Origin: Podarcis pityusensis
Taxonomy: Eukaryota
Reading direction: 5' to 3' (one strand)
Assembly: GCA_964106645.2 (NCBI GenBank)
Contig: OZ067038.1
DNA: 64,000 nt
A program made the position numbers. Shown one piece after another: positions 18,596 to 24,500 of the stretch (position 1 is the stretch's first letter; every line of letters starts with the position of its first letter).

Positions 18596-21500
18596 TACCT
18601 TGGGTTACATACGCTTCAGGTTACAGACTCCGCTAACGCAGAAATAATACCTCGGGTTAAGAACTTTGCTTCAGGTTGAGAACAGAAATCACGCGGTGGC
18701 GGCGCAGCTGCAGCGGGAGACCCCATTAGCTAAAGTGGTGCTTCAGGTTAAGAAGAGTTTCAGGTTAAGAACGGACCTCTGAAACGAATTCAGTACGTAA
18801 CCAGAGGTACCACTGTAATGTGCAAAGGCTTTCTAAATTTCTGTGTAATAAACTTTCAGTGCTTTGCATAAGAAGAGGGGGCCCCATTGGACTATAGTGC
18901 TAAAAACTCAGGTAGAGCTGAAAGAAGACAGGACATGGTTTAAAAAGTCCAAAATGAAGGGATTGTTCCTTTGAGCATAACACGAAGGAGGTCTTTTTGC
19001 TTAGGCCGAAAACAGCTAACTGTGTTGGACAGTTACAGGGCTGCCAATGATCCACACAACTAAAAAATGTGTTGTCCATTCAAACGAGAGTCTTGCAAGA
19101 CCCAACTCTCAAGCAGCACATTAGCAAGCTACTAGCACAGCTTAAGCACATAGTTACAAAGCATCTTTTCTCACTGGGACCTAAGACTTCGCCCCAGAAT
19201 CCTCGCTGGGAAACTTGACACTATGCATGCTATTTCTGGTAAGAACACTCTCCATGAAATGATGTCTCAAAACTAATTAAAATATCGTAGCGCAAATAAG
19301 ACAGGCATAGATATGCCAAGGACTGAATCTATGTTCTGTAACATGGGTGTGGGAACCTCTTTCAACTAGCCGCTTATCTTCTGGGTAACAATTAGATGGT
19401 GCTAGATATTATGCAAGTTTACAAGCTTTTTTTGGGTAAGGAAAAAAAATTTAAGGGAAGATCATTAATACCCAGTACTACGATAAATACTGTTACAAAA
19501 AAAATCTGTTCCACCGAGGGACACTAAAAAATATAGAACTACACTTTGCAAGGACTACTTTCAGTTTCCTTGGAAACAGCATGCCTGGAAACAAAATGTT
19601 TAAAACACTTCATAAGAAATATGACCGAGAGTTGCTTCTACACCACTCCTATTGATTTCAATGGTACCTCCATGGGGGAAAAAATTTGTTCGGCTGATTG
19701 TTTTCAACACAACATTGCCTCCCAAGCTTCTAACTGTCAATTCTGAAAATACCTACAAAATATGTGCACCAAAGGAACATCTTAAGCAGCCTGAAATCTA
19801 CTTACTGCCAAAGATTATGCAAGAAAAATAAATCTGGAAAAATAATACTACATGTGTATCCTCACAGGGCAATTTGGTAAATCTAAATTCAGCTACGTCT
19901 TCTCCAAGTGGGATGATGCACAAGCTTTAGGCAAATAAAACAGCAGCTTAACAACACAATCTTATATGCGTCTGCTCAGGAGTTCAATGGGAACATGATT
20001 GCAGCCCAAGGCATCTGGTTTCAGAAACGACACTTCGCTGGGTGATTATAGCTATGTAACAATCCAATGAGGGACGTGGGTGGTGCTGTGGGTAAAAGCC
20101 TCAGCGCCTAGGGCTTGCCGATCAAAAGGTCGGCGGTTAGAATCCCCGCGGCGGGGTGCGCTCCCGTTGCTCGGTCCCAGCGCCTGCCAACCTAGCAGTT
20201 CGAAAGCACCCCCGGGTGCAAGTAGATAAATAGGGACCGCTTACTGGCGGGAAGGTAAACGGCGTTTCCGTGTGCTGCGCTGGCTCGCCAGATGTAGCTT
20301 TGTCACGCTGGCCACGTGACCCGGAAGTGTCTCCAGACAGCGCTGGCCCCCGGCCTCTTGAGTGAGATGGGCGCACAACCCTAGAGTCTGTCAAGACTGG
20401 CCCGTACGGGCAGGGGTACCTTTACCTTTACCTTTAACAATCCATATTAGGCTAGCAATATCCTAGGTTTGAATACCAGTTGCTGGAAACCACAGAAGAG
20501 GAAGAGTGCTCATGCGCTCATGTTCTGCTCCATGGGTTCCTGCAGGCATCTGGCTGGACACAGTGCAAACAGGATGCTGGACTAAATGGGCCTCTGGCCC
20601 AATCCAGCAGGCTCTTCTTGTGTTCTTACGTTCTTAGTTACCTGGGTAAGAACAAGGCATGTAATCTCCTGTGGTTGCCACCTCCAGCTTCTCTCTTGCC
20701 CCAATACGACCAGTTTACTACGTTTATATACTGTCTTTCTGGCAGAGTACTCAAGGCGGTTCACAGCTTAAAATGACCAACAGTATGATGGAGATGCAAC
20801 AAAAACAAAGGGGGAGCGGGAGGGGAAAGGAAAGCAAGAAGATTTGAGTACCAGAGCTGCTATATAAGAGGACTTCCGGGTTAGCGCGATCGACTAATGG
20901 CGGATTCCCTCCGAGCTCCGGAGGGAATCGGCTCTGCTGGAGACGGGTCTTACCGCGACGGCGACGCGGAGACCCTCAGAAACCGCAAGCGCGGAAGCCT
21001 GCGGACTTGGTGACTTGGTGGGCACCTTAAGCGCCCCCTCCGACCCACGAAGAGCCTTTTTAAAGGCTTCGGAGAGGGTACGGAGAGTGGCGTGGTGCTG
21101 GGAGTAGACCGCTACTTCAGTGGAGCGAAGCCGTGTGCCATGGTCGGAGAGCGCTGACTTTTTTCCCTAAATTTGGACCTGAAAAGAAACAACCCGTGAG
21201 TAGAACGGAATTTGGACTTTAAAATGTTTACCTTTGAATTCGGTACGACCGGGGGATGTGTTAAAGGGAAGTCCGCACCCCCCCCCTACAAACGATCTAA
21301 AGCAAGAACAGGAGAAGTAAGGTGGAGAGTCTACCCTTCTCGGCGCAAGCTAAAGGATATTAATTTCCACGATTTGATAAAAGAAGTTTTGAGCTGGAGT
21401 GTGAGAGCGGAACATTAGAAGTTTTTTTTTTTATGTGCAACCCCCCCTCCCGGACCCGGGAGCGTCCTGTGTCTGAGTCTGTTGAAGAGCAATAAGGAGT

Positions 21501-24500
21501 TTGACAGCTGTCAAAGCTGTCAAACGGGCAGTTTAAAGTTAAAAAGTTTGTTACTTAAGATCTCTCTGGACTAAATGTGTTATAATTGAATTAAAGTTGT
21601 TGGAAACAAAGAAACAAACAACGAGGTAAAGGACTGTTGGAAAAAGACTACTAAGTAACCAGAATCCCTCTAGGGGGAATTCTGAGACATTACAATGGCT
21701 GCAGATGGAAAATTACTAGCTGAGATAGAAAGAATGTTTTTCCTCGTGGGAATTTTACAGGAGCAGAGTCTGGCTATGAACAAACAACTCACGACCTTGA
21801 CTTCTGGAACAAGTAGCTCTGCTGAATGCACTAAGGATTTGAATGAGAAAAAATCTGCAGCTGAATTAGAAGAGATATCTCAAGAATTGGAGGAGAGCAA
21901 GCAAGGAATGGAGAAAGCACAGATGGAAAGTACCAACCAGAAGCCTACACCAGTGGACTATAAGGAAGAAGACCCTTGGATTACATGGATTACAAATCTG
22001 CGAAAGATGCGAAAGATGAAGGAGGAGGCCCCTGGAGTATTTGAAATACAGGAACTTAAAAGAAAGAAGAAATATGATTGGGGCCTCCACTCTGAATATG
22101 AAGGATTGGTGGAACTTTTGCAGCAGCTGTTACCAAGTATTCTTGTGGGAAGAAAACCTGGTTTGATTGGGACAGAACTCCTTCGAGACTTGACGACCAA
22201 CACAAAGGACTACCAACAAAACCGGCGGAGAGGGACTGAAAGAGACTTGAAGGCCTCGGACGTGAGGAATCCAGGCTAAGAACTGTTATTGTGGACACGT
22301 ATCAGGGAAGGAACGGAAACCGGGGTTGGGAGGGAGGGGAAAATAGAATTTTAAAAACGTTTATGATTTTTGGGTTTAGCTAATATGATCCATATTTAAT
22401 ATAAAATGGGAAATCGATGGAAGGGAACGTGGGTCCACCTTAGGAAAGAATTTAATTTTTTTTTATAAGAGATGTAATATTAATATGGTAAGGAGGAGAA
22501 ATAACAACTTGCTGATTTAATTATGGGAATTGGGATGTAGGAAGGGGGGGTGGGGGGAAGTCAAGGAACAAGGTTAAGAAAGTAAGGTTTTGAAATTATA
22601 CATGTTTTTGTCTGTGTCTTTTTTGTGTGTGGGATGTCTTTATAAAATGTGAAAATCCAATAAAAATTTTATTAAAAAAAAAAAAAGAGCTGCTATATAA
22701 GAGGGTTCAGGAAAGGAAGGACCCAAATTGCAGCTGCTTCAAGTCAAACCTTTGGTTGACAAAATATTTCAAAATACAGTGGTACCTCGGGTTACAGACG
22801 CTTCAGGTTACAGACGCTTCAGGTTACACTCCGCTTACCCAGAAATAGTACCTCGGGTTAAGAAGTTCAGGATGAGAACAGAAATCGTGCTCCGGCGGCG
22901 CAGTGGCAGCGGGAGGCCCCATTAGCTAAAGTGGTACTTCAGGTTAAGTACAGTTTCAGGCTAAGAACGGGCCTCCGGAACAAATTAAGTACTTAACCCG
23001 AGGTACCACTGTCCTAGGTATTGGGGCAGGAGGGGATAATTAGACGAATTCCTATGCCCTGTTATTTATGCCATGTCATCGCCGTATAATAAGTTGCTCA
23101 GCTCTTGCCAGCAGCACTAAATGATGAAAAGCTGTGAGGAACTCTCAATGGAAGGATATAAGCACAGCACAAGGGATAAGAGTATCCACGGCGGGGGGAG
23201 AGGAGGAATTTGCTGAAAGTAACCCCTTTCCTGCTGTGGGGGAAGTCGTGTTCTCCAGCCTCAACCCTCCTTCAAGCCTGGAAGGAAGATGCAGACAGGG
23301 AAGAGCACCACTCAGGGAAGCAACAGCCCCCAGCTTCTATACCAGAGGGTATTGCTTTGACAGACTCAGAAGACGCTGTTTCAGTGCAGCCCCCATGCCA
23401 TAGGAGCCAATGACTACAGAACCAGACAGCAGTTTTTTCACAGCACCTACAGCTTCGCAGGGAAGGTGGGTCCATGGCAGGACCCATCCTGTCAGACTTT
23501 GTGAGGCCTCTGCATTCTGCTGAGACAACACCCCTCCTCCTGAGAGCATCTTCCACAGTGTGCTATCCAGGGTACTGAAAGAACTTCTCTTCCCTCTCAA
23601 GGCCCTATCTTATTGGATGTGGCTCTGCCTCTGCTCAGTACGCTTACGCCCTGAGGCACAGTCTGTGATCGGTTGTGACAGGGATATCCCATAGTTGGAA
23701 TTCTGCCCATGGTTAGACTGGATTCAACCCATAGAGGTGTTTTTTTTTTTTTTTTTTAAGACTCAATGGGCATTTACTTATGAAACCCTCGTTTACAGCA
23801 AGTCAGGATCTTTTAAAATACCAATTTCAATATCTTGGCTTCTTGTTTACTATCTTGTACAGAAGACGGCTGAAAGACGTAGAATTGGAAACATGTTAGC
23901 ATTTGGTACATCCAAACCAAAATATCTCTGTTGTAAAAAAGCATGTGTGTAATAACTTCAGCTTTGAAATATTACATCCAAAAGATAGCCTTGTCCGGCA
24001 CAAAAGTGGTACTTGTGACACTGCTTCTGGGCAGTAGATGTTACACGACAGTAACATTCTATTTTTGCCTCCGGAATGAGCAATATTTTAAAACCTGATT
24101 GCATTTCATATAGCAAGGTTTTCGTTTTTATAAACTGATGATCAACTTTTCACTTAATCATCCAAGAAAAAGCAGTTTCCACTTTTCTTCTGTTCCACAT
24201 CCTTGATTGAACTGAGTTTGTTTATTCTTGGTCTGTGATCATTTGGATCTCTTCTGAAAGTAATCTCAAGTTGAGATGAGAACTTATTCATGCCAGTCAA
24301 GAGAGTTTGGGGATCATTCACCAATGTGCACTTGGATGGATTGCCATTAAGACAATGAAACATTCTGCAAGGTGTTCATGCAGACCCATGCTGAAGTCAT
24401 GCTCTAACACAAAGGAAGGGGTTTTTTTAGCATAAAGAATGACAGCTCTGGCTGCCATAAGATGTTGTTCTGAATCTAGGCATGCAACCCATAGTTTTAG

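What the first reader, a model, noticed from the sequence alone, without database searches (positions are those of the whole stretch)
20868..22685. Complete single-ORF non-autonomous retroelement (half-L1-like) encoding an atypical 194-aa protein
Seen: perfect long TSD, about 830-nt CpG-rich 5' UTR, one intact ORF with strong Kozak context, about 400-nt G-tract 3' UTR, AATAAA and A-tail, and no endonuclease or RT. Known: HAL1 elements carry only ORF1 and borrow L1 ORF2. Inference: a young lizard family mobilised in trans. The protein shows coiled-coil-like E/K heptads, but I see no L1-ORF1 RRM signature (RRxNxRIxG.PE), so it may be a truncated or novel ORF1 derivative, possibly a competitor of the helper L1. 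Best candidate in the window for an undescribed system.
Basis: partly seen in the sequence, partly recalled or inferred. Interest (0 to 1): 0.7.

Follow-up and report, generated by a model that had tools for sequence, protein, structure and literature searches.

The report
Lizard retroposon carrying an orphan gene
A freshly inserted 1.8-kb copy of a polyadenylated RNA sits in an intron of a lacertid lizard gene and carries one intact gene for a small protein that has a few lizard-type relatives, no known domain and no enzyme for copying itself, so it most likely spreads using another element's machinery.

Summary
An 1,814-nt insert (20872-22685, +) is flanked by a perfect 19-nt duplication. 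It has an 823-nt CpG-rich leader, one intact 194-codon ORF, a 406-nt G-rich, C-poor trailer, AATAAA and a 12-13 A tail. No RT or endonuclease trace was found.

The window comes from a lacertid lizard: its WDR25 exon is 95% identical to Podarcis raffonei. The insert lies antisense in a WDR25 intron.

The protein is not a detectable L1 ORF1p. Pfam, PDB and two very large protein searches found no domain. They found only 18 relatives of 129-215 aa at 21-80% identity. 16 of the 19 family proteins (window included) run from the same start to the same -PG end. Two named relatives lie on different Podarcis lilfordi chromosomes. Sequence just outside the ORF is shared with some relatives.

Best reading (0.55): a protein-coding, non-autonomous poly(A) retroposon family, organised like HAL1 or HeT-A but with an orphan protein, copied in trans by an L1-type LINE.

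Main rival (0.28): a retrocopy of a lineage-restricted host gene.

Genome-wide copy structure, Dfam/Repbase and structure prediction could not be checked.

The parts
20853..20871 (.). Upstream copy of the 19-nt target-site duplication
   Evidence: Exact match to 22686-22704.
20872..22685 (+). Whole retroposed unit, 1,814 nt
   Evidence: Bounded by the duplication and ending in an A-run. A 32%, G 27%, T 24%, C 17% on the sense strand. 14 runs of T4 or longer argue against a Pol III transcript. No tRNA or Rfam match.
20872..21694 (+). 5' leader (823 nt) with a CpG-island-like head (20872-21171)
   Evidence: First 300 nt: GC 61%, 30 CpG, obs/exp 1.09. Whole leader 0.95; ORF 0.37; window 0.34. Six upstream ATGs. 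A promoter role is inferred, not shown.
20900..20932 (+). Stable hairpin near the 5' end
   Evidence: 14-nt arms, 93% complementary (I7). The first 129 nt fold at -62 kcal/mol, z -3.9; 0 of 200 shuffles fold as well. Function unknown.
21224..21418 (+). Longest upstream ORF in the leader (64 codons from ATG)
   Evidence: No Pfam family at E<=1. Conservation in other copies could not be tested.
21695..22279 (+). Intact ORF, 194 aa plus stop; orphan protein family
   Evidence: 0 breaks. 18 relatives found. Alignment A2. No Pfam or PDB relative.
22280..22685 (+). 3' trailer (406 nt), G-rich and C-poor, closed in all frames
   Evidence: A 144, T 126, G 108, C 28. 12 stops in the first frame. No Pfam remnant. 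Its first ~75 nt, read in another frame, resemble the altered tail of relative P0009.
22322..22339 (+). G-quadruplex-type motif (four G3-4 runs)
   Evidence: Regex. Further G7 and G6 runs at 22544-22557.
22659..22664 (+). AATAAA polyadenylation signal
   Evidence: The tail starts 10 nt after it.
22674..22685 (+). Pure A tail (12 A; 13 if the first base of the duplication is counted)
22686..22704 (.). Downstream copy of the 19-nt target-site duplication

Best explanation
The insert is a young, full-length copy of a protein-coding, non-autonomous poly(A) retroposon family of lacertid (perhaps wider squamate) lizards.

Proposed cycle, step by step:
1. RNA polymerase II starts at the element's first bases, driven by the CpG-island-like head of the leader (inferred).
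2. The RNA is cleaved and polyadenylated after AATAAA. The position of the genomic A tail, 10 nt after the signal, shows this.
3. The 194-aa protein is translated (inferred: good ATG context, but six upstream ATGs).
4. The reverse transcriptase and endonuclease of an autonomous L1-type LINE, supplied in trans, nick the target and prime on the A tail. This leaves the 19-nt duplication (inferred from these hallmarks; the helper was not identified).
5. The protein is kept by selection because it helps its own RNA to be copied, for example by binding it or by bringing it to the helper's machinery (speculative; no nucleic-acid-binding domain was found and most members are acidic).

In organisation it works like HAL1 of mammals or HeT-A-type ORF1-only elements of flies. 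Its protein, however, is not a recognisable ORF1p.
For: - Retroposition hallmarks: exact 19-nt duplication, AATAAA, pure A tail.
- No RT, endonuclease or other domain in any frame.
- Family search 1: 11 relatives among 218 candidates of 5.8 billion proteins.
- Family search 2: a profile search of 1.84 billion representatives gave 12 hits at E<=0.001. 11 are real and 7 of those are new.
- The 19 sequences (window included) are 129-215 aa.
- 16 of 19 run from the same start to the same -PG end. Pairwise identity among the 17 sequences compared (the two truncated ones, P0009 and P0019, left out) is 21-80%, median 40%.
- Conservation is uneven: 0.74-0.83 identity to the window protein in its last 24 residues, against 0.30-0.55 in residues 61-160. 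This points to selection on the protein rather than neutral decay.
- Dispersal: the two named relatives lie on contigs of 137 Mb and 90 Mb of Podarcis lilfordi. They are identical at 71 of 73 residues over their shared C-terminal part (my count). The window copy is at a third locus in another lacertid.
- The unit is larger than the ORF. The 36 nt before the ATG read, in other frames, like the N-terminal extension of P0008, P0011 and P0013. The first ~75 nt after the stop read like the altered tail of P0009.
- RefSeq proteomes of many squamates are in the searched database, yet none holds a relative. That is expected if the locus is repeat-masked.
- The leader head keeps CpG obs/exp 1.09 while the ORF of the same copy is at 0.37, like the genome. 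The CpG richness is therefore a lineage property, as for an unmethylated promoter, and not only youth.
- L1-like traits: an A- and G-rich sense strand and a G-quadruplex motif in the trailer. L1 3' UTRs carry such motifs in humans (PMC4407331, abstract).
Against: - No DNA of any other copy could be read. It is therefore not shown that copies share the same 5' end, length and tail, have their own duplications, or lack ORF2.
- Few relatives are in the databases, most as single sequences on ~1-kb unnamed contigs of unknown species. They could be orthologues of one host gene in different squamates.
- The protein is acidic: pI below 7 in 15 of 19, 5.5 for the window copy. It has no RNA-binding domain, unlike known ORF1 proteins.
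- The ORF has 56% A+T and 36% A. That is nearer to host genes than to lizard L1, whose ORF2 is about 67% A+T and 43% A (PMC9099904, passages).
- The duplication starts AGAG after TACC, not at the T-rich/A-rich site I recall for mammalian L1 endonuclease (recall, not tested).
- There is no second copy, even a decayed one, in the 64-kb window.
Confidence: 0.55

Rival explanations
1. It is a processed retrocopy (a young retrogene or retropseudogene) of a fast-evolving host gene restricted to lizards. The relatives found are that gene's orthologues and paralogues plus a few other retrocopies. An L1 copied the mRNA by accident and the protein has a host function.
For: - The hallmarks (A tail, duplication, no introns visible) are exactly those of a retrocopy.
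- Lizards do make retrocopies: 404 in Anolis, 217 of them intact (PMC3136929, passages).
- The family in the databases is small.
- The protein is acidic and has no ORF1-like features.
- ORF base composition is near that of host genes.
- The start-to-stop pattern kept at 21-80% identity would also fit orthologues under purifying selection.
Against: - No RefSeq squamate proteome in the database holds a relative, although these proteomes are there.
- The only annotated members are two damaged, nearly identical copies on different P. lilfordi chromosomes. That looks like recent dispersal rather than one gene.
- An 823-nt leader with six upstream ATGs and a CpG-island head carried inside the transcript is more usual for a LINE-type internal promoter than for an mRNA (inference).
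- No parent gene was seen, but none could be looked for.
Confidence: 0.28
2. The 194-aa protein is the genuine ORF1 of an autonomous lizard LINE family with an unclassified ORF1 type. This copy, or its subfamily, is an internal-deletion derivative that lost ORF2.
For: - ORF1 proteins are very diverse, and some LINE ORF1s carry no known domain (PMC5203782, passages).
- ORF2 loss is recurrent elsewhere: about 40% of fly telomeric families are ORF1-only (bioRxiv 10.1101/2025.06.09.658640, passages).
- The genomic context of the relatives is unknown, so an ORF2 downstream of some of them cannot be excluded.
Against: - No protein longer than 215 aa carries the domain. The 'longer' search scored none of 1,642 candidates.
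- The only long hit of the all-length profile search is a repeat protein matched weakly ten times.
- In P0009 the sequence after the stop is the same trailer as in the window copy, not an ORF2 start.
- There is no RT or endonuclease remnant in the trailer.
Confidence: 0.12
3. The ORF is a chance or decaying reading frame with no function, on a non-coding retroposed RNA.
For: - No domain and no solved relative.
- Six upstream ATGs could hinder translation.
Against: - 16 of 19 relatives keep the frame from the same start to the same end at a median 40% identity, with all length differences in frame.
- The termini are far more conserved than the middle.
- A caveat applies: protein databases hold only open frames, which biases this count.
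Confidence: 0.04

Closest known systems
HAL1 ('half-L1') of mammals
   Same: A non-autonomous unit with a leader, one ORF, a trailer and an A tail, and no ORF2. [quoted passage not shown]
   Different: The HAL1 protein is an L1 ORF1p. This protein shows no Transposase_22, RRM or zinc-knuckle match in any of 19 members and is acidic. L1 origin of the UTRs was not testable. The host is a lizard, not a mammal.
ORF1-only telomeric retrotransposons of Drosophila (HeT-A type)
   Same: Protein-coding non-LTR elements that lost ORF2 and depend on the ORF2 protein of other families. Such lineages can persist and diversify (bioRxiv 10.1101/2025.06.09.658640, passages).
   Different: Those are Jockey-clade elements with a Gag-like ORF1 (MHR, CCHC) that target chromosome ends. 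This one has an orphan protein and an ordinary intronic insertion with a duplication.
Processed retrocopies / retrogenes made by L1
   Same: The structure is identical in kind: a full transcript copy, an A tail and a target-site duplication.
   Different: No parent gene is known. The relatives look dispersed and diversified, and the CpG-island promoter region is carried inside the transcript.
L1 ORF1p, type II (coiled coil + RRM + C-terminal domain; Pfam Transposase_22)
   Same: Same position in the unit: first ORF after a long leader. Small size. A possible N-terminal helix.
   Different: No sequence match. The heptad pattern is not significant. No structure comparison was possible, because structure prediction never accepted a job.
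2A 'StopGo' peptides at the N-terminal region of some non-LTR ORFs
   Same: The window protein ends ...DVRNPG, which recalls the motif -GD(V/I)ExNPGP- (PMC3708506, passages).
   Different: It is one residue short and has no Glu. The Asn varies (N in 10, D in 3, S in 3 of the 16 -PG ends). A stop codon stands where the Pro should be, and nothing is encoded downstream.

Membership tests
HAL1-type (ORF1-only, L1-derived non-autonomous retroposon) | Lacks ORF2 (no RT or endonuclease) | tested here: met
   One ORF only. 0 Pfam families for it. 0 of 50 other pieces match Pfam.
HAL1-type (ORF1-only, L1-derived non-autonomous retroposon) | Its protein is an L1 ORF1p homologue | tested here: not met
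   0 of 19 members match Transposase_22, RRM or zf-CCHC at E<=10. The profile against PDB gives only chance rows, E 0.24-1.5.
HAL1-type (ORF1-only, L1-derived non-autonomous retroposon) | UTRs or 3' end shared with a partner L1 | not testable with these tools
   No lizard genome or repeat library was searchable. No L1 fragment was seen in the window (pieces under 110 aa in 28-64 kb were not scanned).
HAL1-type (ORF1-only, L1-derived non-autonomous retroposon) | Multi-copy family of units with the same ends | tested here: inconclusive
   Protein relatives lie on at least two P. lilfordi chromosomes plus this locus, and flanking UTR sequence is shared with 4 relatives. No DNA of other copies was available.
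L1-type retroposition product | A tail after a polyadenylation signal, plus a target-site duplication of about 7-20 nt | tested here: met
   AATAAA at 22659, A12-13, exact 19-nt duplication.
Processed retrocopy of a host gene | An intron-containing parent gene elsewhere in the genome | not testable with these tools
   No lizard assembly was searchable. No annotated RefSeq squamate protein is related.
SINE | Pol III head derived from tRNA, 7SL or 5S, and short length | tested here: not met
   No tRNA. No Rfam match. 1.8 kb long, with 14 runs of T4 or longer.
2A / StopGo peptide | -GD(V/I)ExNPGP- with translation continuing from the Pro | tested here: not met
   The window end is DVRNPG-stop. 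The Asn is not conserved in 6 of the 16 -PG ends. Motif from PMC3708506 passages.
Gly-end / RxxG C-degron (human CRL2 adaptors KLHDC10, APPBP2) | -PG at the extreme C-terminus; RxxG near the end | tested here: met
   This is a match at motif level only. 16 of 19 end in -PG, and 14 of those 16 have R at -4. Motifs from PMC7458402 passages. Whether it acts as a degron in lizards is not testable here.

The most novel reading that the evidence does not exclude
This is a self-propagating 'mRNA parasite' of lizard L1. It is a retroposon lineage that never was a LINE and that carries its own promoter and an orphan protein unrelated to any ORF1p. The most conserved feature of that protein is a free C-terminal R-x-P-G end, matching the Gly-end and RxxG motifs read by cullin-2 ubiquitin-ligase adaptors in human cells. 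The protein would then act through that end, either as a deliberately short-lived factor or as a hook onto or decoy for a host ligase, rather than as an RNA chaperone. That would be a new way for a non-autonomous element to secure its copying.
Probability: 0.1. Interest if true: 0.75.

Novelty: new variant of a known kind. Interest (0 to 1): 0.45.

Why it matters
Protein-coding non-autonomous retroposons are rare, and the known ones (HAL1, HeT-A-type) carry a recognisable LINE ORF1. A lizard family with the same layout but an orphan, acidic protein would matter in three ways:
- It would show that RNAs can become parasites of LINE machinery with proteins of other origin.
- It would give a natural system, in genomes with many young low-copy L1 lineages (PMC3787681, passages), for asking what such a protein contributes.
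- It would add a lineage-restricted protein family, with sharply conserved termini, that current annotation misses.

If it is instead only a retrocopy of an unannotated host gene, it is an ordinary event that flags a missing gene model.

Tried and rejected
Tried without result:
- PDB search with the single protein gave one chance row, a plant ribosome-inactivating protein at E 0.51. It was not used.
- The 'longer' protein search gave nothing.
- The 1,336-aa hit P0018 of the profile search consists of about a dozen near-identical repeats matched weakly ten times by profile positions 154-192. I take it as spurious; it looks like fibronectin-type repeats by eye, which I did not test.
- The Atlas did not hold the window protein or P0005. 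With P0002 the best score was 0.78, below the level that chance reaches.
No model and no fold search were made, so likeness to the L1 ORF1p fold stays unchecked.
- No other copy in the window by blastn or by a family HMM against 2,843 six-frame pieces.
- Pfam on 141 pieces of 62 aa or more in 1-28.2 kb gave nothing. Of the 334 pieces listed, the 184 right of 28 kb were not scanned. Only ORFs of 110 aa or more were scanned there.

Considered and rejected:
- The 2A reading (see the membership test).
- A SINE or Pol III origin.
- A coiled coil, on a crude test.
- A possible YY1-type core near the 5' end. I noticed it by recall only and did not test it, so I make nothing of it.

Papers:
- Not held: PMC2923044 (the HAL1 paper) and PMC3255789 (the zebrafish ORF1p paper). 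I know both only from reference lists.
- Supplements were not opened.

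
Full report
**1. What is there.**
The region 20500-23100 holds an insert of 1,814 nt, 20872-22685 on the + strand. It lies between two exact copies of a 19-nt sequence, at 20853-20871 and 22686-22704. Its start, 20868, lies inside the duplication.

The insert has these parts:
- An 823-nt leader.
- One ORF of 194 codons (21695-22279) in a good initiation context.
- A 406-nt trailer.
- AATAAA at 22659.
- A pure run of 12 A, or 13 counting the ambiguous first base of the duplication.

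Further points on its anatomy:
- The first 300 nt have 61% G+C and CpG obs/exp 1.09. The ORF has 0.37 and the whole window 0.34.
- The trailer has only 28 C in 406 nt, 14 runs of G3 or longer, and one four-run G-quadruplex-type motif.
- The leader holds six upstream ATGs, the longest opening 64 codons.
- The first 129 nt fold unusually well (z -3.9).
- The unit holds 14 runs of T4 or longer and has no tRNA or Rfam match. It is therefore a Pol II-type transcript copy, not a SINE.
- The window has no N.

**2. No enzyme.**
- The ORF matches no Pfam family even at E<=10.
- The trailer is closed, with 12 stops in its first frame.
- None of the 50 other stop-to-stop pieces of 25 aa or more, in the six frames of the unit, matches Pfam at E<=0.1.
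- So there is no RT or endonuclease, nor a recognisable remnant of either.

**3. Where it sits.**
- A 233-codon open stretch at 33184-33882 (-) is the first coding exon of WDR25. It is 95% identical to Podarcis raffonei and 93% to P. muralis. The next best is 69%, from Rhineura (152 proteins at E<=1e-10 among 971 candidates).
- The window is therefore from a lacertid lizard. I do not take it for human.
- tblastn with the P. raffonei protein finds only residues 1-221, at 33879-33217. The later exons lie beyond the left edge of the window.
- The insert thus lies in the intron of more than 33 kb that follows, on the opposite strand (inferred).
- I matched this gene exon by exon only.
- A class-I Trp/Tyr tRNA-synthetase exon lies near 55.9 kb (+). 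I name it WARS1 by recall only.
- The immediate insertion site is unique in the window. A 237-nt MITE-like repeat lies 72 nt to the right.

**4. The protein family.**
- The word-indexed search of 5.8 billion proteins gave 11 relatives among 218 candidates: 129-214 aa, 39-80% identical.
- Two of them are 'hypothetical predicted proteins' of Podarcis lilfordi, on contigs of 137 Mb and 90 Mb. Nine come from unnamed contigs of about 1 kb.
- The search among longer proteins gave none of 1,642 candidates.
- A profile of these sequences, read against all 1.84 billion cluster representatives, gave 12 hits at E<=0.001. 11 are family members of 129-215 aa, 7 of them new. The other is a 1,336-aa repeat protein that I take as spurious.
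- The 19 sequences were aligned as A2.
- 16 of 19 run from the same start to the same end: -NPG in 10, -DPG in 3, -SPG in 3.
- The other three (P0002, P0009, P0019) are truncated and/or have frame-changed ends.
- Among 17 sequences (P0009 and P0019 left out), pairwise identity is 21-80%, median 40%. At 35% distance they fall into 11 groups (16 sequences, P0002 also left out).
- Conservation is strongly uneven. Identity to the window protein is 0.63-0.68 in the first 30 residues, 0.30-0.55 in residues 61-160 (where length also varies), and 0.74-0.83 in the last 24 residues (...DYQQNRRRGTERDLKASDVRNPG in the window copy).
- Frames kept open at this divergence, together with uneven rates, point to selection on the protein.
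- There is a caveat: protein databases hold only open frames, so decayed copies are under-counted.

**5. What the protein is not.**
- None of the 19 members matches Transposase_22, RRM or zf-CCHC. The 16 Pfam families reported at E<=10 are each hit by one member only, best E 0.031.
- A profile search of PDB gives three chance rows. The single-sequence search gives one.
- The Atlas gives nothing above 0.78 for P0002.
- 15 of 19 members have a pI below 7, unlike the basic ORF1 proteins I know of (recall).
- My crude heptad test does not support a coiled coil: 50 of 500 shuffles reach the observed score.
- Structure prediction never became available. A fold-level likeness to ORF1p therefore stays untested.

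**6. Signs that the repeated unit is larger than the ORF.**
- The 36 nt before the ATG of the window copy, read in other frames, give the residues that form the N-terminal extension of P0008, P0011 and P0013.
- The first ~75 nt after its stop, read in another frame, resemble the altered tail of P0009.
- P0002 and P0009, on different P. lilfordi chromosomes, are identical at 71 of 73 residues over their shared C-terminal part (my count).
- These points show recent dispersal of copies that include flanking untranslated sequence.
- They fit a retroposon family. They also fit repeated retrocopying of one mRNA.

**7. Mechanism and rivals.**
Best reading (0.55): a non-autonomous, protein-coding poly(A) retroposon copied in trans by an L1-type LINE.
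- Shown: the product structure and the conserved ORF.
- Inferred: the internal promoter, the helper, and any role of the protein.
- Context: lizard genomes hold many young, low-copy L1 families (PMC3787681, passages) and make retrocopies (PMC3136929, passages).

In favour of an element rather than a gene:
- No relative exists in any RefSeq squamate proteome, although these are in the database.
- The CpG-island head is carried inside the transcript while the ORF is CpG-depleted.
- The trailer is purine-rich and G-quadruplex-bearing, as in human L1 (PMC4407331, abstract).

Against:
- The number of relatives is small.
- The protein is acidic.
- ORF composition (56% A+T, 36% A) is nearer to host genes than to lizard L1 (PMC9099904, passages).
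- The target site does not look like the mammalian L1 site I recall.
- No DNA of other copies could be read.

Rivals:
- Retrocopy of a lineage-restricted host gene (0.28).
- Deletion derivative of an autonomous LINE whose ORF1 this is (0.12).
- Functionless frame (0.04).

**8. The conserved end.**
- The end resembles the 2A motif -GD(V/I)ExNPGP- (PMC3708506, passages; also the abstract start of bioRxiv 10.64898/2026.09.24.754024 in the listing).
- It fails that motif, however. It is one residue short, lacks the Glu, its Asn varies, and a stop stands in place of the Pro.
- It does match, at motif level, the -PG Gly-end and RxxG C-degrons read by cullin-2 adaptors in human cells (PMC7458402, passages). 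16 of 19 end in -PG, and 14 of those 16 have R at -4.
- Whether this means anything in lizards is unknown. It is the basis of my most novel reading.

**9. Comparison and novelty.**
- In layout the unit works like HAL1 (PMC5753468, passages) and like ORF1-only telomeric elements of flies (bioRxiv 10.1101/2025.06.09.658640, passages).
- It fails the defining HAL1 test of an ORF1p-type protein at sequence level.
- Full-text searches found no described lizard family of this kind.
- Dfam and Repbase could not be searched, and supplements were not opened, so 'undescribed' is provisional.
- I rate it a new variant of a known kind, interest 0.45.

**10. What stayed unchecked.**
- Copy number and ends of genomic copies.
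- Presence of a parent gene or of ORF2-bearing relatives.
- dN/dS among copies.
- Orthologous empty sites.
- Repeat libraries.
- Predicted fold.
- The collections of metagenome and viral contigs were closed, and the genome collection holds only bacteria and archaea, so none was used.

Noticed in passing
window 22776-23012; also 55229-55456, 18603-18816, 14784-14915 (-), 16494-16571 (-): A MITE-like element of 237 nt with perfect 19-nt terminal inverted repeats and an internal 16-nt tandem unit. At least four further copies or fragments at 85-92% identity lie in the window. The family was not identified.
   Followed up: partly
window 33217-33879 (-): The first coding exon of WDR25, 95% identical to Podarcis raffonei. 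It places the window in a lacertid lizard. The later exons lie outside the window, so the following intron exceeds 33 kb.
   Followed up: yes
window about 55865-56212 (+): An exon of a class-I Trp/Tyr tRNA synthetase (Pfam tRNA-synt_1b, E 3e-10). It is divergent from WDR25, as I recall for WARS1/WDR25 in other vertebrates. The gene name is by recall and was not tested.
   Followed up: no
window 20300-20640: The sequence left of the insertion site is itself repeated in the window at 74-81% identity (38009-38137, 5254-5388 -, 4187-4314 -). It is an unidentified older repeat.
   Followed up: no
window 21224-21418 (+): A 64-codon upstream ORF in the element's leader, in weak ATG context. It has no Pfam match. 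Whether other copies keep it is unknown.
   Followed up: partly
window 23449-23521 (+): A sub-threshold match to the CPEB3 ribozyme model (17.4 bits against a gathering score of 35, E 0.44). I take it as chance.
   Followed up: no
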